A program made the position numbers and the translations under genes. Under the pieces are notes generated by a model that did no database searches, was not told the DNA's origin, and saw only the letters and a list, made by a program, of their open reading frames with translations. Source: a virus. From it: a DNA stretch of 64,000 bases. Below, piece by piece: positions 5,776-39,064 of this stretch (its first letter is position 1; every line of letters starts with the position of its first letter). The DNA lies in the IMG/VR virus record IMGVR_UViG_3300046782_000218, positions 1 through 64,000 of that record; one strand, 5' to 3'.

Positions 5776-5979
5776 TAGGGTCTCCTTGGGGCCGGTGGTT
5801 GGGGGGTCGTCCCCCAACCTCTAATAAAATTATACCATACAACAAACGGTCTGCACAAGTCACCGGCGTGAGGTCTTCCGTAGGGCATCCGGCAACCTAT
5901 CGCAGGCTGGCCGATATTGTGGTACTCCAGACACGCCCGAGCCTCCCGGAATGGTCACGGGAGGCTCGGGCGGGGGTTG

Positions 5980-8072: not shown

Positions 8073-9431
8073 TCATTGGTTAGTGACACCCAGCATTCGA
8101 GACAGCCGGTCGAACACGTGGTCGGTGTTGCCAACGGTCATCCGACATACTTCGTGAAGCTCGACCCAGTTCGGGTTGAACTTGGTGTCGTCTAGGTCTC
8201 CAGTCTTGACGCGGTGACGAGCTTCTCGGGCGACTTCGGCGGCCAGCCTGCTGCCCGCGTCGCAGTTGTCCACAGCTGCCTTGACCACGTGCCAGGCGTC
8301 CATGGGGTCGAGACCTTTCTCAACTAGCCAGGTCCTGGCCGTTGCACTCATGACCTCTGGCTCGTGGTCATACGCGTTGGCCGACATGCGGTCGGCGCGC
8401 ACTTCAAGAGTGCCGATCAGGCCGGTGGCCTTGTTGACCATGGTGTCGAGCAGGATCAACGCGGTAGGCAGCGCGATGCGCTCTACGCTGCTATGACTGA
8501 TGTCGCGTTCGTGATGCAACGCGATGTCTTCCAGCGTGGGGCCGACCTGAGCACGCACCAACCGGGCCAAGCCGGACAGATTCTCGCTAACGATCGGGTT
8601 GCGCTTGTGCGGCATGGCCGATGATCCTTGACGACGATCGGCCCCACCTTCGACCAGTTCGCCGACCTCAGTTCGCATTGACAGACGGACCTCCATGGCC
8701 AGCGACTCGATGACCGCTGCAGCCTGCGCGCAGGCGTACACCAAGTGCGCGATGGAATCGCGGAACACTACCTGCGTGGCCGTTATCGGAGCACTGACCG
8801 AAGGTCCGAGCAACAAATGCGCGAACTTGGCCTCGTCATCGTGGCTGATCCGCTTGTAGTCGCCAACCGGGCCGGACAGTTTGGGGGTAACGGCTTCGGC
8901 ACCGGCTCGTCGAAGTAGGCTGTGAGCCCGCACCATGGCAAACGTGACGTCGGCGACCTTGTACCCCCAGGTGGTAACCTCGGCAGCTTGTCCGTGCGTC
9001 CGGCCGATGCGAAGCGTGTTGCGGTGTTCGAGGGCGTGACCCGCAAGTGCCCGTACCAGTTTGTCCATCCGGCGGTCGATGACGGTCCACGAGTTGGCTA
9101 TGGCCAACGACATAGCCGAATCGACCAGGTCCGAGCTGGTCATGTTCCGGTGAACCCACCCATGAGCCACGAGGTGCATGTTACGTCGCCACGCGGCCAG
9201 GAACGCCATCACGTCGTGACCCGTCGTGGCCTCTTCCTCGGCTACGGCGTCCGGGGTGGGCACCTGAGCCCGTGCCATGGCTTCCGTGGCTTCGGAGGAG
9301 GCTCCCTGGGCCTTCGCGGCGGCAATCTCCACCCTAGCCCAGTCGCGATACTTGGCCTGTTCCGACCAGATGGCCGCCATCTCGCGGCCAAGATACCGCT
9401 TGGGCACCGGAATTTGGTCGAGCGTGTTCAT
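8073..9431 (-). CDS. purB: Adenylosuccinate lyase (fumarase/ASL superfamily)
   Basis: RY..EM..IWS, T.HDVMAF, VH..MTSSD, GRTHGQAAE.TTWG, GSSAMPHKRNP signature, LHHERDISHSSVER. Confidence 0.95.
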   Translation of the reverse strand: MNTLDQIPVPKRYLGREMAAIWSEQAKYRDWARVEIAAAKAQGASSEATEAMARAQVPTPDAVAEEEATTGHDVMAFLAAWRRNMHLVAHGWVHRNMTSSDLVDSAMSLAIANSWTVIDRRMDKLVRALAGHALEHRNTLRIGRTHGQAAEVTTWGYKVADVTFAMVRAHSLLRRAGAEAVTPKLSGPVGDYKRISHDDEAKFAHLLLGPSVSAPITATQVVFRDSIAHLVYACAQAAAVIESLAMEVRLSMRTEVGELVEGGADRRQGSSAMPHKRNPIVSENLSGLARLVRAQVGPTLEDIALHHERDISHSSVERIALPTALILLDTMVNKATGLIGTLEVRADRMSANAYDHEPEVMSATARTWLVEKGLDPMDAWHVVKAAVDNCDAGSRLAAEVAREARHRVKTGDLDDTKFNPNWVELHEVCRMTVGNTDHVFDRLSRMLGVTNQ

Positions 9432-10312: not shown

Positions 10313-11236
10313 CTAGCGTCCGGTGGACCCGAACCCGTTGGAGCCCCTGACCTTGTCCCGGGTGTTGCCCCACTTGGCGTTGAAGCCGAGGGCAGCGGTC
10401 GGGAGGAGGATGATCTGCGCGACCCGCTCACCAGCCGCCACCGTGACCGGCTCGGTGCTGAGGTTCTGGCAGCCCGCGAACAGGACCCCGGTGTAGCCGT
10501 TGTCGATGATCCCGGTGGACACGAGGAGCTTCCTCGCGCGGAGCGTGGAAGACCGGCCGGTGATCATGCCCCACAGGCCGTCCGGGAGGTCCACGGCCAC
10601 CCCCGTGGGGACGTCCACGAACTCACCCGGCTGGATGGTGGTGTCCTCCAGAGTGTACAGGTCGTAGCCCGCGTCGTCGTCGTGCCCCCGGGTCGGCAGC
10701 TTCGAGTTCACGTTGTACGCCTGGAAGATCAGGTCCCACGAGGGCTTGCTCTCGATGGAGGGAACCCGGCGGACGGACTTCTGCAGCTCGCCCATCAGTT
10801 CCGCTCGGCGCTGCAGCCAGTCGGCGACGTCGTACCGAGCGTTGGACGTCTCGGGGCTGACTACCAGTACGTTGGCATCACCGGCCCACCCGCTGATGGC
10901 CCAACTGTTGTTGGTCTCGTCGGTGGCGATCACCACGGGGGTGCAGTTGTTGCGGGCACGCTCGACCTCGGCCGGAACCCCGTAGGTCACCACGCCAGAG
11001 GGCAGGTACGCAAACAGCGCGTGGGCAGCGTCGAGCGCGAACTCGTTGATCTCGCTGATGAACCCGGCAGGGTCACCCTGACCCGGGATGAAGGCGCCGC
11101 CAGGCAGGTAGGTCGACCAGCCGCTCTGGCTCATGGCCTGCTGCAGCTCGCACAGGAACTGAACGTGCTTGTGGTTAGGCTCCGTACCGTAGTCGAGCGG
11201 CTGGGCCCAGTACAGGAGCTTGCTCGGGCTATTCAT
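10313..11236 (-). CDS. N-deoxyribosyltransferase/NMP-glycosidase-like domain fused to a trimeric dUTPase-family domain (DutZ-like)
   Basis: C-terminal dUTPase motifs DAGYDL, GRSS, GIIDNGYTG, ERVAQ, RGSNGFGSTG; N-terminal LYWAQP..TYLP..INEFALDAA..TYGVPAEVERA...PVV resembles the NDT/Rcl fold. Confidence 0.8.
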   Translation of the reverse strand: MNSPSKLLYWAQPLDYGTEPNHKHVQFLCELQQAMSQSGWSTYLPGGAFIPGQGDPAGFISEINEFALDAAHALFAYLPSGVVTYGVPAEVERARNNCTPVVIATDETNNSWAISGWAGDANVLVVSPETSNARYDVADWLQRRAELMGELQKSVRRVPSIESKPSWDLIFQAYNVNSKLPTRGHDDDAGYDLYTLEDTTIQPGEFVDVPTGVAVDLPDGLWGMITGRSSTLRARKLLVSTGIIDNGYTGVLFAGCQNLSTEPVTVAAGERVAQIILLPTAALGFNAKWGNTRDKVRGSNGFGSTGR

Positions 11237-12049: not shown

Positions 12050-13153
12050 CTATCGGAGGAAGATGCCAGTGGCCGGACCGGTGCCCACGAAGTTGACGTG
12101 GGTGCCGACGTTGGCCTGAGTGATGCCGACGAGGGACGCCAGCTGACGCGCCGTGTCGTTGTCTACCCGACTGGCGTCGGAAACGCCTGCCAGCTTCGGA
12201 ATCAGCGTGTCGACCATGGTGAGAGCCAGCTTGACGCCGATGCCGCCGTTGTCCTCGACGGCGTTGCACACCATCTCGTTGTCCCACTCGCCGACGCGGC
12301 GAACCTTGTTGGTGACCGTGGTGCGCTCCTCCGGCAGGCCCAGCTCTTCCCAGGTGGTCTCACCCTTGAGGGGACCGGAATTACCGGCCACGCGGATCGG
12401 CCGGACACGAGCCGCCAGCCACACCTGGAGCTGGTCGACCGAGTCGTGCCAGGGGCTGAGTCCCGCCATGGCCAGGAAGTCGATGGCCCGGCAGTCGGAC
12501 GAGGTGCACTGCGGGTACATCCCGGCGTGCGTTCCGAGTCCGTAACCCTGCGTCCCCTCGATCAGGACGGAGTAACCCTGTCGGAGCTGGCCGTACATCC
12601 ACGGGGCGGAGTCGAAGTCGCCGCCGAACAGCTCGGCCTTGCGCCACACCCGGTCGGCACGAGCGGCGCCGATGCCCTTCGCCGTCGAGCCCAGTCGCTT
12701 GACCAGGTCGGATTGCTGCTCGTCGAAGATGTGGTGGGGCTTGAGCAGTGTCGCCGATCGGTCCACGGACAGCCGACTCGACACGTCGTATCCCGCGCGG
12801 TCGAGGGCGTCCTTCTCGGCGTCGAGCACGGCCAGGTCGACCTCGGATCCGGCCGCGATCACCAGATGCGCGTTACGGTTGCTGACCGCTGCGACCGGCA
12901 CGGACCGCAGCTTCCACAGGTGCGCCGTACCGTCGGGGATGGCGACGCCGTCCAGGTTGGTCATGACCACGTGATTGGTCTCGTCCGGCTTGCACCCCGG
13001 AGGGCACTTGCCCACTACGGTGTGACCCGCGTTCGGTCCGGCCACGCGGACGGCCACCAGGTGGGCCTCCCGCTGCGACAGCTGGTCAGCAACAGAACCC
13101 TTTCCCTCGCTTCCCAGTTGACCGCCAGCCACTACGATGAGCTTTCCGCTCAT
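12050..13153 (-). CDS. purZ: PurZ (PurZ0-type) N6-succino-2-amino-deoxyadenylate synthase, a PurA paralog
   Basis: GGQLGSEGKG (Ser where PurA has catalytic Asp, GDEGKG), GPNAGHT, GSTAKGIG, IEGTQG, YPQCTS, RVAGNSG, ERTTVTNKVRRV, LTMVD; short archaeal-type length (367 aa). Confidence 0.88.
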   Translation of the reverse strand: MSGKLIVVAGGQLGSEGKGSVADQLSQREAHLVAVRVAGPNAGHTVVGKCPPGCKPDETNHVVMTNLDGVAIPDGTAHLWKLRSVPVAAVSNRNAHLVIAAGSEVDLAVLDAEKDALDRAGYDVSSRLSVDRSATLLKPHHIFDEQQSDLVKRLGSTAKGIGAARADRVWRKAELFGGDFDSAPWMYGQLRQGYSVLIEGTQGYGLGTHAGMYPQCTSSDCRAIDFLAMAGLSPWHDSVDQLQVWLAARVRPIRVAGNSGPLKGETTWEELGLPEERTTVTNKVRRVGEWDNEMVCNAVEDNGGIGVKLALTMVDTLIPKLAGVSDASRVDNDTARQLASLVGITQANVGTHVNFVGTGPATGIFLR

Positions 13154-27251: not shown

Positions 27252-28106
27252 TTAGGTAGAAGAGATCGCCGCGTTGGCGTTGGTACGAGCGCGGTAGGCT
27301 TCCTGGTACGGGTCCCCGGGAACGTCGCCGTCCTCGTTGACGTACTGCACGACCCTGTCGAACGTGGGGTTGACGAACGTGGACGGGAACACCCCGTACC
27401 GGTCCTTGCCACGGAATCGACCGGTGGGCACGGTGCTGGCCACGAACCTGGACAGGTCGCCGTCCTCGGTGTCCTCCTGACGGGTGCAGAACACCGCGTC
27501 GACGTAACCGATCAGGTCGGTGGAGAACGCCGGAGTAAGCGCCGGTCGGTAGAACACGCCGCCCGCGTCGTTGTCGACTTCCCGCTTGTCCAGGCAGACG
27601 AACGCCACATGGCACGGAAGGTCACGGAGACGACGGGCGACCCGTCGACACATCTCCGTCATCTTGCCCTGCTCCTTGATGTCCACCTCGAACGGGTCCA
27701 CGATCATGGTAGCCGCTCGCTTGGCGTTGCGCGTGTCCACGATGTCTTCGATGAACCGCTTCTGCAGCTCGGTGAACGAGTCGATGATGATGCCGACCAG
27801 CCGGTCCGCCGGATCGAGGTCGCCAGCCGCCAACTGCTCGGCTTCCTTGATCAGCTTGGCTTCCATCTGACCGGTGAGCTTGTTCATGGCGTCGAAGTTG
27901 GAAACCGGGTACGGGTGGATGTTCTCCACCGGTACGCCCATTCGCCGCAGGGGCCTCTTCTTGAGACCCGACTCGCAGTCGATGGCAACCACGTGGCCGC
28001 TCAGCTTGGCCATGTGAGCCGCATCGGTGCTCTTACCGGAACCGCCAGGCCCGAAATACAGGGCGTTGACGTATTCCTCCGTATCCGCCAGAGACGGAAG
28101 TGCCAT
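27252..28106 (-). CDS. AAA_24 / Sak4-like ATPase (single-strand annealing recombinase)
   Basis: LYFGPGGSGKST, IDCESG, IIIDSFTELQ, GYVDAV, GKDR; ATG at 28106 after AAGGAG (the ORF-track extension to 28337 overlaps RNA elements). Confidence 0.85.
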   Translation of the reverse strand: MALPSLADTEEYVNALYFGPGGSGKSTDAAHMAKLSGHVVAIDCESGLKKRPLRRMGVPVENIHPYPVSNFDAMNKLTGQMEAKLIKEAEQLAAGDLDPADRLVGIIIDSFTELQKRFIEDIVDTRNAKRAATMIVDPFEVDIKEQGKMTEMCRRVARRLRDLPCHVAFVCLDKREVDNDAGGVFYRPALTPAFSTDLIGYVDAVFCTRQEDTEDGDLSRFVASTVPTGRFRGKDRYGVFPSTFVNPTFDRVVQYVNEDGDVPGDPYQEAYRARTNANAAISST

Positions 28107-28273: not shown

Positions 28274-28338
28274 TGGTGTGGACGGGATTCGAACCCGCGC
28301 CTCCGATGCCTCGGTGCTCTGCCATTGAGCTACACACC
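28274..28338 (-). ncRNA. tRNA-like element with the anticodon arm reduced to CCGA-GGCA-TCGG
   Basis: GGTGTG/CACACC-A acceptor, TA-GCTC-AATGGCA-GAGC D arm, GCGGG-TTCGAAT-CCCGT T arm. Confidence 0.8.
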
Positions 28339-28473
28339 CGTCAAGTGCCCTCGACGTTTACCATTTCCTGCTGGTTAGGCTAGGAAACTTTGACGACCGG
28401 TAGAGATGAACACCAACTCCGTCGAGTGGGGATCGATTAGGAGACTTTTACAGTGCCACCTCTACCAGCGCCG

Positions 28474-28583
28474 TGGACAGGTGAGGACTTGAACCTCGTC
28501 GGCCCGATCGCCAGCTCCCGTGTTTGCAACACGTCGACTGAGACCGTCCTTTGCCTGATGGCCCGACCTACTGGGCCCTGCCC
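28474..28583 (-). ncRNA. 110-nt tRNA-like element with expanded core; contains a CGTG-TTGCAAA-CACG hairpin (GCA, Cys-like loop)
   Basis: GGGCAGG/CCTGTCC-A acceptor; GAGG-TTCAAGT-CCTC T arm. Confidence 0.55.
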
Positions 28584-28730
28584 TTGATTGAGTTGTTTTG
28601 ACGTGGCGGCTCCGGTGTCGTACCGACTTTGACGTCGGGCCGGAGCCGCCATCGGGCGACTTTCTTGCACCACCCGGCAAGGCCAATCCGGGTCCCGGGG
28701 CCGGTCTGCCTAAACAAACCACCCGGTGCG

Positions 28731-28797
28731 TGATGTGAACGGGATTCGAACCCGCATCCCCGATGCCTCGGTGCTCTTGCCGTTGAGCTATCACATC
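28731..28797 (-). ncRNA. tRNA-like element with the anticodon arm reduced to CCGA-GGCA-TCGG (second copy)
   Basis: Perfect 7-bp GATGTGA/TCACATC-A acceptor, GCTC-AACGGCAA-GAGC D arm, GCGGG-TTCGAAT-CCCGT T arm. Confidence 0.85.
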
Positions 28798-29052
28798 GGC
28801 CGGATGCCTCCGGCTTTTACCATGCCCGCGTGTTAGGCTGGGCAGTCTGTGTCAGTGCGGGTGGCCGTCCTCGCGGGCGGGCTGGTCCTCCCACTGCGGC
28901 GGGGCCTCGTCGTCGGTCTCCTCGTGCTCGTCGCCCTTGACGATGCTGCCGGTGATCTTGAGCTTCATCGACTACCCCAATTCCCGAGGACCCTGTGCCC
29001 TCGTTCTGCGCCCATTCTATCATGGGAGGGGTTGCTCTGTCTACCCCTGCTG

Positions 29053-29307
29053 TCAGCCGGTCTTGGTGAGCGTCTTGCCCACCTCAGGCGCGGTCTCCAG
29101 CGCCTTGCGGATCGCGGCCTCGCGCCGCTTGGTCACCGCGATGTTCCAGCGCGCCGAGTAGATATTGACGCACTTCGAGCAGTTGTCCGGGCTGTGCCGG
29201 TCACCGCAAACGCGCTTCTTCCACGCCTTGCCGTTCCGGCGGTTGGAGTTGCTACCGGTCTCGACCAGCTTCTTCGCGGGTGCGGCCTTCTGCAGCGAAT
29301 TCGCCAT
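29053..29307 (-). CDS. Small basic Cys/His protein inside the RNA array
   Basis: GAGGGG RBS; promoter TAGACA-N18-TACAAT at 29339-29368; C..H...C..C. Confidence 0.6.
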   Translation of the reverse strand: MANSLQKAAPAKKLVETGSNSNRRNGKAWKKRVCGDRHSPDNCSKCVNIYSARWNIAVTKRREAAIRKALETAPEVGKTLTKTG

Positions 29308-29371
29308 TGCTAATCCCCTCGTCGTGTCCTGTGCCCCTATTGTACCACGGGGGGTGTTGTGCTGTCTAGTG

Positions 29372-29451
29372 TGGACTCGACAGGATTCGAACCTGCAACC
29401 GCCGAGGTGGTGCCTCGGTCAACCAGCGTCTACCAATTCCGCCACGAGTCC
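29372..29451 (-). ncRNA. Leu-type tRNA-like element without a normal anticodon arm
   Basis: GGACTCG/CGAGTCC-A acceptor; TGGCGGAATTGGTAGACGC Leu-type D arm; CCGAGG-CACCA-CCTCGG hairpin; GCAGG-TTCGAAT-CCTGT T arm. Confidence 0.8.
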
Positions 29452-29638
29452 CGCTATTAAATTATGCCTTTGTGTAGTTGGTTTACCGGTCCACCGAGCA
29501 CCACCGTCCCCACGTAAAATGCTCGGTGGACCAGACCTCGGGCAGGGACCCCGTTACCCGAGGGGCGGGAGTCACTCGACGGGGGGGACGAGATCTTCCC
29601 TGCTAGTGGACGGTGGCGCGCACAACCGGGGGTCTGCG

Positions 29639-29738
29639 TGGTCGTATCAGGAATCGAACCTGCATTGCCCTACGCTGGTCCTTCAACGATTTCCCGGGTT
29701 AGTTGGGCTCGGGTGGCTTACCATTAGCCGAAACGACC
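29639..29738 (-). ncRNA. 100-nt tRNA-like element with enlarged anticodon and variable regions
   Basis: GGTCGT/ACGACC-A acceptor; GGCT-AATGGTA-AGCC D arm; CAGG-TTCGATT-CCTG T arm. Confidence 0.65.
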
Positions 29739-29873
29739 TCGGTATTTAATTAGCTCCGGTCCTGCCTCAAGGGAGAACGGACGGAAAACCCTTGAGGCAG
29801 GACCGGACCGGCTGCTCGCGGTTTGGTAGCCAGAGACTTGCCCTACCGCGAACTCAGGGGCACCGAACCCCAG

Positions 29874-29998
29874 TGGCGGCCAGAGGAATCGAACCTCCAC
29901 TTGAGACCCCAACGGGGAGAGAGTCTCGTGATCTCGATGCTGGCGTTTCAGGTGGGGTTCAGGGGGCCCCAACGCCTTGATCGAACCAGACAACCGCC
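29874..29998 (-). ncRNA. 125-nt tRNA-like element: acceptor and T arm around a non-tRNA core
   Basis: GGCGGTT/GGCCGCC-A acceptor; GGAGG-TTCGATT-CCTCT T arm; internal GGCGTT/AACGCC and GAGAC/GTCTC stems. Confidence 0.55.
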
Positions 29999-30461: not shown

Positions 30462-30962
30462 TCAAGACGCGAGAGCCCAGGCTTCGTTGTCGGGAACTGC
30501 CCACACCGGATACCGGCCTCGCCGATAAATCAGGGTGGGCACACCGGATTTGACCGATCGGTGAATGCAGTCCCAGGTACCGTTGGAATGCTCCTGCCAC
30601 ACAAACCCAAGCGTGGCGAGGGGATGCTCGTCAACCATCCGCTGGTTGCGGTAGTTACCTTGAGCAGGACAGAAGTCGGACACACCGTTCCAACGGCGGT
30701 GCCTCGGGGTGCAGGTCGGCAAGCACGGGTCCGACCACCGAGCCTCTACTCGCTTGACCCGAACGCCTTCGTAGTACCGGTTCACCGCCCAGCCGTCCGC
30801 CAAGTTGTCGGCTCCGCTACGGTTCTTCCCGTGCATCACCGTCATTAACGTGAACGGACCAGCCACTACCAGCGAGCAGTACGCTTCCCACAACGCGTTG
30901 TCCAACATGCCAGGGTCAGCCCACGTCCTGCTGCCGGTAACCAGTATTAGTGCTTCGCTCAC
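30462..30962 (-). CDS. SLOG (YspA/DUF2493-like) family protein
   Basis: ILVTGSRTWAD, VMHG..GAD..A..WA, GNYRNQRMV, SNGTWDCI. Confidence 0.85.
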   Translation of the reverse strand: MSEALILVTGSRTWADPGMLDNALWEAYCSLVVAGPFTLMTVMHGKNRSGADNLADGWAVNRYYEGVRVKRVEARWSDPCLPTCTPRHRRWNGVSDFCPAQGNYRNQRMVDEHPLATLGFVWQEHSNGTWDCIHRSVKSGVPTLIYRRGRYPVWAVPDNEAWALAS

Positions 30963-30982: not shown

Positions 30983-32929
30983 TCAGTGTCGGGTGTGATC
31001 GATCTCCCAACCGGTGTCGAGCAGGAACCGCTCTTCCCGGTCGTCCCCCAGCTTACGGCCGGTGAGGCACGCCTCGCGCATCGAGCACATGCGCTTGCAG
31101 CGCTCGGCGTCCGGGTGTCGGGTGTGCTTGTTCGCCTTGGAATGCAGGTACCTGGCCGTTTCCAAGGTCTCCTGCAACAGCGTGCGGACCTCCTGGTCTG
31201 TGCGGTTGGTGGGGACTCGGGCGAACCTACCATCGATCGGCTGCGGCTTAGGCTGGGCACCCGGCTTGAGGCCAGCGGCCTTGTCGGCGTGCCATTGAGC
31301 CACGACGTCCGGATGATCACCCTTGTTCCGGGTGGTCCGCACGCCGTTGTACAGGCAGGCAAAGATGTTCTTGTCGAGCAGATTCAAGGCACCTTTGTAT
31401 ACGCCGAACTGATCGTGGAAGTCGAGATCCTGGGTGTCCCCCGGCAAGTTGGCTGCACTGTTGTGGGTCATCACGCCGTTAACCGCAAACAGGCTATCAG
31501 CGGCTCGGACTTCCAAGTCGGTACACGCTCTCTCGCCTATCGGTTCAACACTTACTACCGACAGCCGTTCTTGCAGAGAAGCCTTAGACCGCTTCCACCG
31601 ACTTAGTTTTTCCTCATGATGGTACGGTGCGGGGAAGTCACTCGGAAACCGCATTTTGACTTCCCAGTTGGGGGCACCTACGCCGCCTTGATACTTTGGT
31701 CCCTTGTTACACCAAACGGTTGCCACCCCGCCCAGTGATTCAACCAGCTTTATTACATCATTGGCCAGCTGCTTGGAACCTGTCTGGTACAACGGGACAC
31801 CCTTACGGTGAGATCCGTCCGTATCCATCAGTCCACGAAGCAGCTCCAAGCGCTGATTAAATGACCCCAGCAGGTATCCGGACGGGATGAACTTATGGGG
31901 GCCATCCGACCCGTGCAGTCCCAGAGACTTTACCACGTCCCCTAGGGTTCCTGCCAGTCGGTACGTGTCCGCTTTGGTCGGGTGTTTGTACACGCCGGAC
32001 ACGTAGCTGCCCTCGGGCAAAGCAGCTTTAACCCGAGCCACGGTCCCCGGGTGATTCTTAGTGAATGTTACGGGCAGAGAAGTGAACCCGCCGTCCCCCA
32101 ACAGCGCTCCTAGCAAGTAGGGGTCTAGTTGGAAAGTGCGTTCCGGCCGGTCGGACCTCGGAGACTGCAACATCCGGTAGGTCACTCCGGAAGCAACGTT
32201 AGCAGCCATTTCGGCTGTAGTGATCTCTTCACGCACATACCGGCCGGTATGCACTGACCTGTCTACGGGCCACACGTGGTCTCCGGAACACACTACTTCA
32301 ATCCCGTTTCGCAGAGTGACCAGGTAACAGTCAAGCTGAATGCTGCGGCTAGCTGCGACAACCTCAGTCCAGGTCCCATCGGATGACAGCACCAGGTCTC
32401 CAGCCGTTACGTCGCCGATGCGTGTCTTACCGGAGAACGTCTGTATGGGCGTATCGTCACTCAGGCACTTGTGATCCCACACCCAGCGGCGACCGGTCAT
32501 CCGATGTTCGGCCACCAGGTCAACGCCGCCCTTGAGGGTGAATCCGGACAGCCGACCGCTGGCCGTCCTGAGCGGTACTTCGAACCGGTATTCGACCGCG
32601 AGGATCTTCCATTCCTCATCGACGCCGTAATGTTCGACGTACCCTTCGAACATCCACCTTACCAGATCGATGGTGTCAGGGTCCTTGCCGGTGGCGGCCA
32701 GATCGGCGAACACCTGGTCAACCGACGACATGGCCACGGCCTTGTTGCCCGGAACCCGTAGCAATGATCGGTACCAGGTCTCCAACACGAGGTGGAACAT
32801 GGACCCCTTGGCGAGAGGGCCGGTTCCGTCGTTCTCCTTGGTCCACCTTTGGGCGTATGTCCTCCAGTGATAGTGGGGGCACATCCTACCGCGTTGGATC
32901 TCGGAGTAGCTAACCGTTACTGTCGACAC
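30983..32929 (-). CDS. Cas4/RecB-like PD-(D/E)XK exonuclease containing an intein
   Basis: SYSEI..CP, GSMFHLVLE, AVE, GGVDLV, VWDHK|S, QFGVY, C..MC.MR.AC (1+3 Cys, Fe-S pattern). Confidence 0.88.
   Translation of the reverse strand: MSTVTVSYSEIQRGRMCPHYHWRTYAQRWTKENDGTGPLAKGSMFHLVLETWYRSLLRVPGNKAVAMSSVDQVFADLAATGKDPDTIDLVRWMFEGYVEHYGVDEEWKILAVEYRFEVPLRTASGRLSGFTLKGGVDLVAEHRMTGRRWVWDHKCLSDDTPIQTFSGKTRIGDVTAGDLVLSSDGTWTEVVAASRSIQLDCYLVTLRNGIEVVCSGDHVWPVDRSVHTGRYVREEITTAEMAANVASGVTYRMLQSPRSDRPERTFQLDPYLLGALLGDGGFTSLPVTFTKNHPGTVARVKAALPEGSYVSGVYKHPTKADTYRLAGTLGDVVKSLGLHGSDGPHKFIPSGYLLGSFNQRLELLRGLMDTDGSHRKGVPLYQTGSKQLANDVIKLVESLGGVATVWCNKGPKYQGGVGAPNWEVKMRFPSDFPAPYHHEEKLSRWKRSKASLQERLSVVSVEPIGERACTDLEVRAADSLFAVNGVMTHNSAANLPGDTQDLDFHDQFGVYKGALNLLDKNIFACLYNGVRTTRNKGDHPDVVAQWHADKAAGLKPGAQPKPQPIDGRFARVPTNRTDQEVRTLLQETLETARYLHSKANKHTRHPDAERCKRMCSMREACLTGRKLGDDREERFLLDTGWEIDHTRH
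31460..32467 (-). mobile_element. Intein (336 aa) with LAGLIDADG homing endonuclease
   Basis: Starts CLSDDTPI, block B CSGDHVW, YLLGALLGDG and LLRGLMDTDG, ends NGVMTHN followed by Ser. Confidence 0.92.
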
Positions 32930-38032: not shown

Positions 38033-39064
38033 TTACTTTCCTTTCGCTGCTCGCCAAGCGGAGAACGCCGCGATGAGGTCGACGTCCGGGTCTCCCGTGG
38101 GGGTCGGAGATGGGGGGACAGGGGCCGTGATCAGGTTGGGAACCGTTACGTCACCCTGTTGTGACAACAGCCAGGTGAGTTCGTCTGTGGTGACGTAACC
38201 CCAGCCGTCGAGGCCCCAATCGGTGTCCCACGAGTTCGGGAACCAGTACCGCCCGGTTTCCAGCTCGAACCTCGGCAGCTCCAGCTCGTGGCCGCCAGCC
38301 TCTCCCGAGTTCTTGTCCACCTTGATGTGACCGTCCGAGTCGGTGTTAAACATGGAGTTCATCCACACCGTGCCGACGATGACAGGGCCCTTCTGGAGAG
38401 CCGAGTTGACTGCTGCCAGGCTGAACGCGTGTGTGTATTTGTCGGCCAGGCCGAGGGCGACCAGCGCTTTCGCAACTCCCAGGCCGGATGAGCCGGTGTC
38501 GGTGGGCGGATACTGACCGGAGAACGAGTCGAGGATCGTGGCCAGTGAGTAGAGCTTCACCGCGAAGTCTTCGTTGAGCTGATGAACACCGGCCGCAAAC
38601 ACGCCGTGTGAAGCTGCAGCACCCGCAGCGCTGACGGTGACCGAGGTTGTAGCTGTGCGATTGGCGAAATCGGTGCCTAGCAGTCCCGTTGCCGCGTTGC
38701 CGGTGCACGACCCGAGGTTGCCCTGATTCAGGATCGGTATGCGCCTGGTCCAGTTGACCGAGCTGACAGCACCTTTCGGCAACACCGGTTCTGCGAAGGC
38801 CACCGACCGAGAGTCGTGGTTGATGTGTCGGCCAAGCCGCAGCGTGGCGTAATTGGCTTCGGGCAACCGGCGGTGGTTCGGGGTGTTCGTCTCTTCCACG
38901 GGCGGAGTCTCCTCGTTGCTGTTCTGTTCTTTGATCAGGTGGTGCAGTCGGCCAATATGCCGCCGCATCAACCAGTGGTGCAGCCCGACCAGGGGCACCC
39001 AGAGTAGGTTAGCTTCCAGGTTTGGCCAGACTTGACCCCAACTAGCTAGCGCCGACGACATCAT
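38033..39064 (-). CDS. Papain-like (C1) cysteine protease; probable internal start at 38899
   Basis: [27 protein letters not shown]; GAGGAG before GTG at 38899. Confidence 0.85.

What the first reader, a model, noticed from the sequence alone, without database searches (positions are those of the whole stretch)
28274..29451. Anticodon loop replaced by the same GNRA tetraloop hairpin; shared ACCGAGGCA motif
Seen: the elements at 28274-28338 and 28731-28797 differ in acceptor stem, D loop and variable region but share an identical 4-bp CCGA-GGCA-TCGG arm in place of the 5-bp/7-nt anticodon arm. GGCA fits the stable GNRA consensus. The Leu-type element at 29372-29451 also has ACCGAGGCA shortly after its D arm. 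Inference: a conserved nuclease-resistant cap or protein-binding tag.
Basis: partly seen in the sequence, partly recalled or inferred. Interest (0 to 1): 0.7.

Follow-up and report, generated by a model that had tools for sequence, protein, structure and literature searches.

The report
Sealed-anticodon tRNA look-alikes in phage
An uncultured soil phage carries no normal tRNA gene but a cluster of six tRNA-shaped RNA genes whose codon-reading loops are closed, zipped or replaced, so they look like selected tRNA mimics, probably cutting signals for tRNA-trimming enzymes, and not like decoders or broken genes.

Summary
On the minus strand, 28274-28338 and 28731-28797 score as tRNA in Rfam (45.3 and 54 bits). 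Both have a 4-bp CCGA/UCGG stem capped by GGCA where the 17-nt anticodon arm belongs. GGCA is GNNA, not GNRA, so that part of the title is wrong.

- **Setting:** the two elements lie in a 1.8-kb island of six T-arm-bearing tRNA look-alikes. The phage is an 89-kb actinophage record, rated 99% complete, with no canonical tRNA.
- **The "tRNA-Leu":** its GAG is predicted to be locked in a hairpin. That hairpin becomes the shared arm if five bases are removed.
- **Larger modules:** the two mini-tRNAs are paralogous ~110-nt modules. Each has two leader hairpins with conserved loops, one of them also GGCA, and compensating stems.
- **Other DNA:** the same arm sits in an unrelated complete 41-kb phage with a different acceptor stem. 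A variant in a soil RNA library changes the loop-closing pair A:U to G:C. Cultured Streptomyces and Microbacterium phages hold similar short-arm elements between genes.

Best reading (0.42): they are selected non-decoding mimics that serve as RNase P/Z cutting signals. No RNA ends were seen. This scan noted such mimics before on other DNA.

The parts
28274..28338 (-). T6: 65-nt mini tRNA look-alike. It has a 6-bp acceptor stem with one unpaired C, a D arm, the sealed arm CCGA-GGCA-UCGG, a T arm and discriminator A. No CCA is encoded.
   Evidence: Rfam tRNA 45.3 bits. Not called by ARAGORN. MFE fold.
28339..28356 (-). T6 leader hairpin 2: 7-bp stem CGUCGAG/CUUGACG capped by GGCA, directly abutting the 5' end of T6.
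   Evidence: One of only two sense-strand hairpins in the 89-kb genome with 5 or more bp and a GGCA loop. Fold -9.2 kcal/mol.
28363..28388 (-). T6 leader hairpin 1: stem UUUCCU/AGGAAA with the conserved loop AGCCUAACCAGC, followed by the linker AUGGUAAA.
28474..28549 (-). E5: 76-nt element with a tRNA-type acceptor stem (GGACGG/CUGUCC), a T arm and discriminator A. The D and anticodon arms are replaced by other hairpins.
   Evidence: T-loop motif hit. Sequence and folds. Not matched by Rfam tRNA at E<=1. Structure parsed by eye, so it is weak.
28731..28797 (-). T4: 67-nt mini tRNA look-alike with a perfect 7-bp acceptor stem, a D arm, the sealed arm CCGA-GGCA-UCGG, a T arm and discriminator A. 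No CCA is encoded.
   Evidence: Rfam tRNA 54 bits. The MFE fold is the cloverleaf. A variant in an RNA library carries compensating changes.
28799..28814 (-). T4 leader hairpin 2: 6-bp stem GCCGGA/UCCGGC capped by GGCA, 1 nt before the 5' end of T4.
28823..28844 (-). T4 leader hairpin 1: stem GCCC/GGGC with the conserved loop AGCCUAACACGC, followed by the linker AUGGUAAA.
28852..28968 (-). Small acidic ORF (38 aa) between promoter-like site P2 and the T4 module.
   Evidence: Sequence. No Pfam hit.
29014..29043 (-). Promoter-like site P2: TAGACA, 18 nt, TG-n-TAGAAT.
   Evidence: One of five such sites in the genome.
29053..29307 (-). ORF of 84 aa, basic, with GC3 of 0.92. It has no homolog and no family.
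29339..29368 (-). Promoter-like site P1: TAGACA, 18 nt, TG-n-TACAAT, directly after T3.
29372..29451 (-). T3: 80-nt look-alike of tRNA-Leu. ARAGORN reads anticodon GAG, but the GAG lies in the stem of the hairpin CCGAGG-CACCA-CCUCGG, and position 33 is C.
   Evidence: The sealed fold scores -29.8 against -16.5 kcal/mol for the decoding fold, and the hairpin pairs have probability 0.99.
29456..29464 (-). AT-only box TAATTTAAT, 4 nt upstream of T3. It is promoter-like.
   Evidence: The pattern TAATT[AT]AAT occurs only twice in the 89-kb genome, both times just upstream of a tRNA look-alike.
29486..29534 (-). Long terminator-like hairpin between B2 and T3.
   Evidence: Fold.
29639..29738 (-). B2: 100-nt tRNA look-alike with a canonical D arm and T arm. 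A 40-nt insert sits inside a 3-bp anticodon stem.
   Evidence: Rfam tRNA 31.3 bits against a cut-off of 29.
29744..29752 (-). AT-only box TAATTAAAT, 5 nt upstream of B2. It is promoter-like.
29755..29807 (-). Terminator-like hairpin of about 19 bp between A1 and B2.
29874..29998 (-). A1: 125-nt element with a 7-bp acceptor-type stem (GGCGGUU/GGCCGCC), a T arm and discriminator A. Three internal hairpins fill the rest.
   Evidence: T-loop motif hit. The MFE fold closes the acceptor stem. No Rfam tRNA match. Weakly supported.
27252..28106 (-). Sak4/RecA-like recombinase gene, the first gene after the RNA island.
   Evidence: PHROG 124, E = 6.7e-29. tblastn.

Best explanation
The two elements are selected, non-decoding tRNA mimics. 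They belong to a six-member island of such mimics placed between the exonuclease and recombination-replication genes of an actinophage.

Each mimic keeps the parts that tRNA-processing enzymes read: the acceptor stem, the T arm and, in four of the six, the D arm with its GG. The codon-reading end is closed in T4 and T6, zipped in T3, expanded in B2 and replaced in E5 and A1.

Inferred mechanism: the island is transcribed with the neighbouring small genes. Host RNase P cuts at the 5' end of each mimic. RNase Z cuts after the discriminator, because no CCA is encoded. The upstream RNA then ends in the GGCA-capped hairpin that abuts the cut. The downstream RNA starts with its own hairpin. The message is thereby split into separately stabilised pieces. 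The sealed arm keeps the excised 65-67-nt RNA out of decoding and leaves no anticodon loop to be cut.

Shown: the structures, their conservation and compensating changes, their positions, and the absence of a decoder. Inferred: transcription as one unit, the cuts, and the stabilising role of the flanking hairpins.
For: 1. Shape without decoder. Rfam tRNA matches 4 elements, at 54, 45.3, 40.1 and 31.3 bits, and none is a canonical tRNA. The record is rated 99% complete. ARAGORN finds only T3, and T3's anticodon is predicted to be paired with probability 0.99.

2. Selection on structure.
- T4 against T6: acceptor pair 2 changes A:U to G:C. In leader hairpin 2, three of six pairs change on both sides and one changes to G.U, while the GGCA loop is unchanged. 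The stem of leader hairpin 1 is wholly different, while 10 of 12 loop bases are kept.
- The copy in L148 differs from T4 on both sides at 6 of 7 acceptor pairs, all still paired. Its core is 94% identical over 52 nt.
- A contig from an RNA library differs from T4 at 4 places and at none in the 68 flanking nt it covers. Two changes turn A30:U35 into G:C, one turns G43.U59 into A:U, and one lies in the D loop.

3. Placement between genes.
- In the complete phage G001 the sealed copy and a second odd tRNA look-alike flank a TerD-like gene. Each starts 6 nt after a stop codon and is followed by the same leader with a GGAGAG ribosome-binding site. That phage's 4 canonical tRNAs are clustered 7 kb away.
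- Streptomyces phage Yara has an unannotated copy between a UUCG hairpin and the ribosome-binding site of gp57.
- Microbacterium phages Clock, Alakazam and Nebulous share an identical 67-nt short-arm element between a covarying hairpin and DNA polymerase I.
- Hiyaaviruses keep a covarying tRNA look-alike in the same slot upstream of Sak4.

4. Flanking hairpins. GGCA hairpins end 0 and 1 nt before T6 and T4, and a hairpin starts 2 nt after T6.

5. Phage bias. The short-arm pattern gave 18 loci in viral contigs against 5 in 185,579 prokaryote genomes.
Against: - No RNA 5' or 3' ends were seen. The only RNA-library evidence is read-length contigs, which cannot show ends and may derive from DNA.
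- A pure cutting signal needs no fixed sequence in the sealed arm. Yet the 12-nt arm is identical in T4, T6 and an unrelated phage, nearly shared with T3, and GGCA recurs in the leader hairpins.
- B2 and T3 look like separate units, each preceded by a terminator-like hairpin and an AT-only box. That fits free-standing small RNA genes better than punctuation.
- T6 has only a 6-bp acceptor stem with an unpaired C.
- E5 and A1 were parsed by eye and do not match Rfam tRNA.
- The two window copies are paralogs, so their shared features count only once.
Confidence: 0.42

Rival explanations
1. The elements are trans-acting tRNA-shaped decoys or sponges. They are made as stable small RNAs and bind a host or phage tRNA-binding factor without being consumed. 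Candidates are a tRNA-targeting defence nuclease, a modification enzyme, a synthetase or EF-Tu. T3 may be charged with leucine but cannot decode.
For: - The sealed arm is conserved at sequence level across unrelated phages.
- The tertiary-core bases are kept: U8, A14, the GG in the D loop and the UUCGAAU T loop.
- B2 and T3 each follow an AT-only box found nowhere else in the genome, and each box follows a terminator-like hairpin.
- Six different mimics sit in one island of a phage that has no decoder.
- T3 keeps the D arm and A73 of a Streptomyces-phage tRNA-Leu.
Against: - An RNA without an anticodon loop cannot be a substrate decoy for a nuclease that reads that loop.
- No tRNA-related enzyme or RNA-binding family was found among the 89 ORF translations scanned (29 with PHROGs, 60 with Pfam).
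- The copies in G001, Yara and Clock are packed between a stop codon or hairpin and the next ribosome-binding site. No promoter-like site of their own was noticed there, though no promoter scan was run on those loci.
- No abundance data exist.
Confidence: 0.25
2. The GGCA-capped hairpins are cis-acting protein-binding sites. They could resemble boxB in antitermination or act as a translational operator. On this reading the tRNA-like body is a scaffold, and the roughly 110-nt modules are composite riboregulators of the genes downstream.
For: - Both modules keep the loops and linkers (AGCCUAAC..GC, AUGGUAAA, and GGCA twice) while the stems covary.
- The only two sense-strand hairpins in the genome with 5 or more bp and a GGCA loop are the two leader hairpins.
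- The modules lie upstream of the recombination and replication genes.
Against: - The leader part was found in no other contig: 0 of 72 matches to AGCCTAAC-N5-12-ATGGTAAA in viral contigs precede a tRNA look-alike.
- The copy in G001 has no GGCA leader hairpin.
- The evidence rests on two paralogs.
- No candidate binding protein is known, and the nearby 84-aa basic ORF has no homolog.
Confidence: 0.15
3. The elements are decaying tRNA genes. A deletion removed the anticodon loop, the gene then duplicated, and the copies have no function.
For: - T4 and T6 are clear paralogs.
- T6 has lost acceptor position 7.
- T3 resembles a phage tRNA-Leu at 76% identity.
- Related Hiyaaviruses hold a normal tRNA-Glu nearby.
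Against: - Compensating changes occur in the acceptor stem, the sealed arm and the leader hairpins.
- The same arm occurs in an unrelated phage with all 7 acceptor pairs intact although 6 have changed.
- The element is 100% identical in three Microbacterium phages while the neighbouring hairpin varies.
- All four differences in the environmental variant preserve the structure.
Confidence: 0.08

Closest known systems
Canonical bacterial and phage tRNA (Rfam RF00005)
   Same: Acceptor stem, D arm with GG, T arm with UUCGAAU and discriminator base. The elements score above Rfam's cut-off.
   Different: There is no 5-bp stem with a 7-nt anticodon loop. T4 and T6 have a 12-nt sealed hairpin instead, T3's anticodon is paired, and B2 carries a 40-nt insert. 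ARAGORN does not call T4, T6 or B2.
tRNA-like processing signals: plant mitochondrial t-elements (PMC1920247, abstract seen in the listing) and the mascRNA element at the 3' end of MALAT1 (recalled, not read here)
   Same: These are tRNA-shaped structures without a working anticodon, embedded next to mRNA ends and cut by tRNA-processing enzymes. In the recalled MALAT1 case, the upstream RNA is left with a protective 3' structure.
   Different: Those cases come from organelles and eukaryotic nuclei. Cleavage is shown there and not here. The elements here lie in a phage, as an array of six, and two of them share a fixed sealed-arm sequence.
Phage tRNAs with altered anticodon loops that evade host anticodon nucleases (PMC10264068; abstract in the listing, term search)
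   Same: Phage-encoded tRNA genes whose anticodon region departs from the host's. Actinophages are included.
   Different: Those tRNAs remain decoders with 7-nt loops. A term search of that paper for tRNA-like, pseudo, truncated, shorter, decoy and non-canonical gave 0 hits.
Irregular tRNA polycistrons and allo-tRNAs from soil metatranscriptomes (PMC5389517, passages read) and tRNA-Other of Bacillus cereus (named in that passage)
   Same: Arrays of non-canonical tRNA-like genes from soil, possibly charged but not used in translation.
   Different: Those RNAs have anticodon loops and 8/4 or 9/3 acceptor branches, and they are attributed to bacteria. The elements here have a 7/5 or 6/5 branch and no anticodon loop.
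Features labelled tRNA-OTHER or tRNA-Undet(nnn) in actinophage records, such as Microbacterium phage Clock gene 38
   Same: A short-arm tRNA look-alike of the same kind, placed between genes of the replication module.
   Different: That is only an annotation label with no stated function. The same element is unannotated in Alakazam, Nebulous and Yara.

Membership tests
tRNA (RF00005), as a decoder | Cloverleaf with acceptor, D and T arms that scores above the family cut-off | tested here: met
   54, 45.3, 40.1 and 31.3 bits against a cut-off of 29.
tRNA (RF00005), as a decoder | A 5-bp anticodon stem with a 7-nt loop, U33 and a free anticodon | tested here: not met
   T4 and T6 have a 4-bp stem with a 4-nt loop. 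T3 has C33, 3 of 5 stem pairs, and its GAG is paired with probability 0.99. B2 has a 40-nt insert.
tRNA (RF00005), as a decoder | Aminoacylation and use on the ribosome | not testable with these tools
   Requires charging assays. By eye, no G3:U70 is present in any of the six.
GNRA tetraloop | Loop sequence G-N-R-A, with a purine at position 3 | tested here: not met
   The loop is GGCA, with C at position 3. In the energy model it ties with all the best-scoring loops and has no special bonus.
tRNA-like processing signal (t-element or mascRNA kind) | tRNA-shaped fold without a functional anticodon, kept by selection | tested here: met
   Compensating changes between the paralogs, in G001 and in the variant from the RNA library.
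tRNA-like processing signal (t-element or mascRNA kind) | Embedded in a longer transcript next to coding regions | tested here: inconclusive
   The positions between genes fit. No transcript maps exist, and B2 and T3 look like separate units.
tRNA-like processing signal (t-element or mascRNA kind) | Cleavage by RNase P and RNase Z at its borders | not testable with these tools
   Contigs cannot show RNA ends.
tmRNA | tRNA-like domain together with a tag reading frame, and alanine identity (G3:U70) | tested here: not met
   ARAGORN with the tmRNA search found none. Rfam gave only a 9.9-bit tmRNA fragment. No G3:U70 is present.
Bacterial Y RNA (YrlA) with Rsr | A Ro-binding stem and a neighbouring Rsr/TROVE gene | tested here: not met
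   No Y RNA family in Rfam matched at gathering score. The 29 translations scanned with PHROGs gave no Ro-like family, and the 60 scanned with Pfam gave no TROVE family. Short ORFs were not all scanned.

The most novel reading that the evidence does not exclude
The GGCA-capped hairpins are a specific recognition code. They occur twice in each module, with a 5-nt-longer form in T3 and the same arm in an unrelated phage. A dedicated factor would read GGCA on a G+C stem presented by a tRNA-shaped scaffold. The modules would then form a new class of composite tRNA-like riboregulators or inhibitors. For example, they could block a tRNA-directed host defence or time the switch to the recombination and replication genes. 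On this reading they are more than generic cutting signals.
Probability: 0.15. Interest if true: 0.8.

Novelty: new variant of a known kind. Interest (0 to 1): 0.6.

Why it matters
- **Phage tRNA counts.** Phage tRNA genes are usually read as codon supplements or as escape from anticodon nucleases. Here a near-complete phage carries six tRNA-shaped genes and no decoder. An unrelated phage keeps its real tRNAs in one cluster and its sealed look-alikes elsewhere, between genes. Part of what gene finders score as phage "tRNA" or "tRNA-Undet" may therefore be a separate kind of RNA element that uses the host's tRNA-processing machinery for another purpose.
- **Testability.** Similar elements lie unannotated in cultured Streptomyces and Microbacterium phages, so the question can be tested at the bench.
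- **Annotation.** The tRNA-Leu(GAG) call in this genome should not be counted as a decoder.
- **Literature.** I found no paper describing sealed-anticodon tRNA mimics in phages in four full-text searches. The library lacks most subscription journals.

Tried and rejected
The exact 17-mer GAGCACCGAGGCATCGG gave 9 loci in viral contigs, and 0 of 9 are tRNA-like. All are chance matches in G+C-rich sequence.
- **Phage blastn.** megablast and blastn of the region against 50,697 phage records found no match at E <= 1e-5.
- **Sak4 in viral contigs.** No relative was found.
- **Sealed arm plus T loop.** The exact pattern gave 1 locus in metagenome contigs. That locus, L150, has 36% G+C, no clear acceptor stem and could be chance. 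The pattern gave 0 loci in genome contigs.
- **Leader motif.** AGCCTAAC-N5-12-ATGGTAAA gave 71 loci and 72 matches in viral contigs, none next to a tRNA look-alike.
- **Flanking proteins.** ORFs from six short-arm loci (L148, L136, L139, L144, L145, L138) gave no tblastn hit to this genome. G001 has no Sak4 match.
- **84-aa ORF.** It has no homolog other than itself, no Pfam family and no PHROG family.
- **Origin of replication as a rival for the AT boxes.** The cumulative GC-skew minimum lies at 38,055, not in the island.
- **Multiple alignment.** The MAFFT alignment of 12 short-arm elements misplaced the variable-length arms. I therefore built no covariance model and ran no count of structure pairs. 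Pair counts in this report are by eye or from MFE folds.
- **Sequencing runs.** X2, X3 and X6 hold only short identical pieces of this region and add no variation. Parts without cover mean nothing.
- **Earlier scan look-ups.** Look-ups by place, by sequence and by a second word set found nothing.
- **Dropped rows.** I examined by eye only those with GAGC as the 3' strand of the D stem. Of the 18 loci, L132, L133, L135, L137, L143, L147 and L149 (one family) and L146 do not fold as a clean sealed cloverleaf.
Full report
**The record.** The window is part of a single 89,118-bp virus record with 62% G+C, rated 99% complete. By GC3, nearly all genes lie on the minus strand. PHROG hits give a siphovirus-type layout: tape measure, minor tail proteins and endolysin. 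These are followed by a Cas4-like exonuclease, the region in question, a Sak4/RecA-like recombinase, a primase-polymerase, a helicase and a DNA polymerase. By tblastn with Sak4, the nearest named relatives are the Streptomyces Hiyaaviruses Hiyaa, Keanu, Spocter and Galactica, at about 52-53% identity.

**The observation.** On the minus strand, Rfam's tRNA model matches 28731-28797 (here called T4) at 54 bits and 28274-28338 (T6) at 45.3 bits. In both, the anticodon arm is reduced to the 4-bp stem CCGA/UCGG around the four bases GGCA. ARAGORN calls neither element.
- T4 folds by itself into the cloverleaf with the short hairpin. T6 does so except for an alternative pairing in its T arm.
- ACCGAGGCA also lies in the third element (T3, 29372-29451). 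The 9-mer occurs five times in the window against 0.79 expected, and none of 100 shuffles reached five.
- GGCA is not a GNRA loop, because its third base is C. The nearest-neighbour model places it level with all 32 loops at -3.7 kcal/mol, because of the G-A closing mismatch.

**An island of six look-alikes.** A scan for the T-loop motif finds seven matches on the minus strand of the whole genome. Six lie between 28285 and 29895, and the seventh lies inside a long ORF.
- Over the whole record, Rfam tRNA matches four elements: T4, T6, T3 and B2 (29639-29738, 31.3 bits). Nothing else matches.
- B2 has a normal D arm and T arm, but a 40-nt insert sits inside a 3-bp anticodon stem.
- E5 (about 28474-28549) and A1 (about 29874-29998) keep an acceptor-type stem, a T arm and discriminator A around other hairpins. 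I parsed these two by eye, and they are the weakest members.
- All six have discriminator A followed by C and then a base other than C, so none encodes CCA.

**T3 is not a credible decoder.** T3 aligns with the tRNA-Leu(UAG) of Streptomyces phage Gilson. By that alignment its loop reads CCGAGGC, with C at position 33, and only 3 of 5 stem positions pair. The variable region CCUCGG is complementary to the loop.
- The cloverleaf with the hairpin CCGAGG-CACCA-CCUCGG scores -29.8 kcal/mol. The decoding fold scores -16.5 kcal/mol.
- The hairpin pairs have probability 0.99.
- Removing CCACC from this hairpin gives exactly the ACCGAGGCAUCGG of T4 and T6. The three arms are therefore related, although the D and T arms of T3 differ from those of T4 and T6.

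**T4 and T6 are parts of larger paralogous modules.** The alignment extends about 45 nt upstream of both elements. Each module has four parts:
- A first hairpin with different stems (GCCC/GGGC against UUUCCU/AGGAAA) around a conserved loop, AGCCUAAC..GC.
- The linker AUGGUAAA.
- A second hairpin with different stems (GCCGGA/UCCGGC against GUCGAG/CUUGAC) capped by GGCA. In this stem, three pairs change on both sides and one changes to G.U.
- The mini-tRNA itself.

The second hairpins end 1 nt and 0 nt before the 5' ends of the tRNA look-alikes. They are the only two sense-strand hairpins in the genome with 5 or more bp and a GGCA loop. Conserved loops with compensating stems are the reverse of what decay would leave. 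Because the two modules are paralogs, this counts as one comparison.

**The arm outside this genome.**
- I then searched viral contigs with a pattern that fixes the D arm and T loop and demands a short distance between them. It returned 18 loci.
- One of them, L148, reads GUCCCUG..GAGC-UU-CCGA-GGCA-UCGG..CAGGGAC-A. Its core is 94% identical to T4 over 52 nt. Six of its seven acceptor pairs differ from T4 on both sides, and all still pair.
- The record of L148, G001, is a complete 41,360-bp phage with terminal repeats. It has no Sak4 match, and its flanks share no protein with this genome.
- The exact arm plus T loop gave one further locus in metagenome contigs, which is doubtful, and none in 185,579 prokaryote genomes.

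**A variant in an RNA library.** A 151-nt contig from a soil metatranscriptome covers 28721-28855 and differs at four places, all inside T4. Two of them, A30>G and U35>C, change the loop-closing pair to G:C and leave GGCA unchanged. G43>A turns a G.U pair into A:U. A20>G lies in the D loop. A contig of this kind shows neither RNA ends nor transcription.

**Short-arm look-alikes as a class.** Other loci fold into complete cloverleaves with short arms and various caps: GUAA, GGAA, UUAA, GAUGA, GCAG, AACA, GUAU/UUAU and GGCA again in L017. The short-arm pattern gave 18 loci in viral contigs and 5 in the prokaryote genome collection. I ran no canonical-tRNA control, and I do not know the size of the viral collection.

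Cultured phages hold such elements too:
- **Yara.** An unannotated 66-nt element, GGACGGA..CCGG-GACG-CCGG..UCUGUCC-A, lies between a UUCG hairpin and the ribosome-binding site of gp57.
- **Clock, Alakazam and Nebulous.** These share an identical 67-nt short-arm element with encoded CCA. It lies between a hairpin whose stem covaries and the DNA polymerase I gene. Only Clock labels it, as tRNA-Undet.
- **Hiyaaviruses.** In the slot upstream of Sak4 they keep an unannotated tRNA look-alike with a 6-bp stem, a 12-nt loop and CCA. It shows compensating changes in the D, lower and acceptor stems. A normal tRNA-Glu(CUC) lies one gene upstream.

**Context and mechanism.**
- In G001 the sealed element and a second odd look-alike flank a TerD-like gene. 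Each starts 6 nt after a stop codon and is followed by the same leader, which ends in a GGAGAG ribosome-binding site. That phage's four canonical tRNAs (Trp, Asn, Asp, Ile) are clustered 7 kb away.
- In this window, two promoter-like sites of a motif found five times in the genome (T[AT]GAC[AT], 16-19 nt, TG-n-TAnAAT) precede two small ORFs that lie between T3 and T4.
- Hairpins abut both sides of T6 and the 5' side of T4.
- What all six elements keep is the half of a tRNA that RNase P, RNase Z and the CCA-adding enzyme read. That statement rests on established knowledge and was not tested here.
- My best reading is therefore punctuation: the look-alikes are cut out, and the neighbouring RNAs are left with terminal hairpins.

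Two observations do not fit simple punctuation. The sealed-arm sequence is fixed across unrelated phages, and GGCA recurs in the leader hairpins. In addition, B2 and T3 each follow a terminator-like hairpin and an AT-only box that occurs nowhere else in the genome. These points keep the decoy and protein-binding readings alive. No tRNA-related enzyme or RNA-binding family appeared among the 89 ORF translations scanned, 29 with PHROGs and 60 with Pfam.

**Literature and earlier notes.** Four full-text searches and look-ups in four papers found no description of sealed-anticodon tRNA mimics in phages.
- The nearest items were t-elements (abstract seen in a search listing) and irregular tRNA polycistrons from soil (passages read).
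- A third was phage tRNAs with altered anticodon loops (abstract seen in a search listing, plus a term search with 0 hits).
- The mascRNA comparison is recalled and was not read here.
- This scan's own notes list 29 earlier findings of anticodon-less tRNA mimics in at least 27 other genomes. They are unchecked AI notes. They agree with the class but add no independent evidence.

**Verdict.** The elements are selected non-decoding tRNA mimics. Their function is not shown. I put a cutting signal at 0.42, a trans-acting mimic at 0.25, a cis protein-binding module at 0.15 and decay at 0.08.

Noticed in passing
window 30983-32929 (-): The Cas4-like PD-(D/E)XK exonuclease ORF (648 aa) also hits the LAGLIDADG_3 and Hint_2 families, and terminase- or helicase-like PHROGs in its middle part. 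It probably carries an intein.
   Followed up: no
window 8076-9431, 10316-11236, 12053-13153 (-): These ORFs resemble adenylosuccinate lyase, dUTPase/dCTP deaminase and adenylosuccinate synthetase. From memory, this gene set recalls phages that replace adenine with diaminopurine. I did not test this.
   Followed up: no
L010 about 5853-5937 (Hiyaa); L011, L158 and L159 at the same slot: An unannotated tRNA look-alike lies just upstream of Sak4. It has a 6-bp lower stem, a conserved 12-nt loop (..CUGGCUCCG) and encoded CCA. Compensating changes occur in three stems among Hiyaa, Keanu and Galactica. Rfam tRNA did not match it in the two records scanned, Hiyaa and Keanu, at E<=1.
   Followed up: partly
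L231 1194-1263 (Clock), L238, L239: Three Microbacterium phages share an identical 67-nt short-arm tRNA look-alike with CCA upstream of DNA polymerase I. The upstream hairpin differs through compensating changes. Only Clock annotates the element, as tRNA-Undet.
   Followed up: partly
L148 3201-3288 (-) = G001:28023-28109: A second odd tRNA look-alike (44.6 bits; ARAGORN reports a 4-base anticodon) has a 6-bp stem around a 15-nt loop. Together with the sealed element it brackets a TerD-like gene. Hiyaaviruses also bracket TerD with a tRNA and a tRNA look-alike.
   Followed up: partly
L026 (viral contig, 8 matches): Eight tandem repeats of about 125 nt each end in the same T-arm-bearing unit.
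   Followed up: no
L015, L033, L046, L050, L051, L053, L058, L073, L075, L115, L116, L124, L127, L130: A recurrent family in viral contigs has a D arm and a T arm with only 15 nt (CCACAAGCAGAGGUC or close variants) where the anticodon arm and variable region belong.
   Followed up: no
window 29456-29464 and 29744-29752 (-): These are the only two matches to TAATT[AT]AAT in a genome of 62% G+C. Each lies 4-5 nt upstream of a tRNA look-alike and just after a long hairpin.
   Followed up: partly
window 30462-30962 (-): A protein of the YspA/SLOG family (PF10686, 36.7 bits) is encoded just upstream of the RNA island.
   Followed up: no
run X7, record 15: A 159-nt contig from the RNA library, at depth 11.8, matches the shared T-arm region at two places 119 nt apart. 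This hints at a related tandem of tRNA-like units. I could not read its sequence.
   Followed up: no
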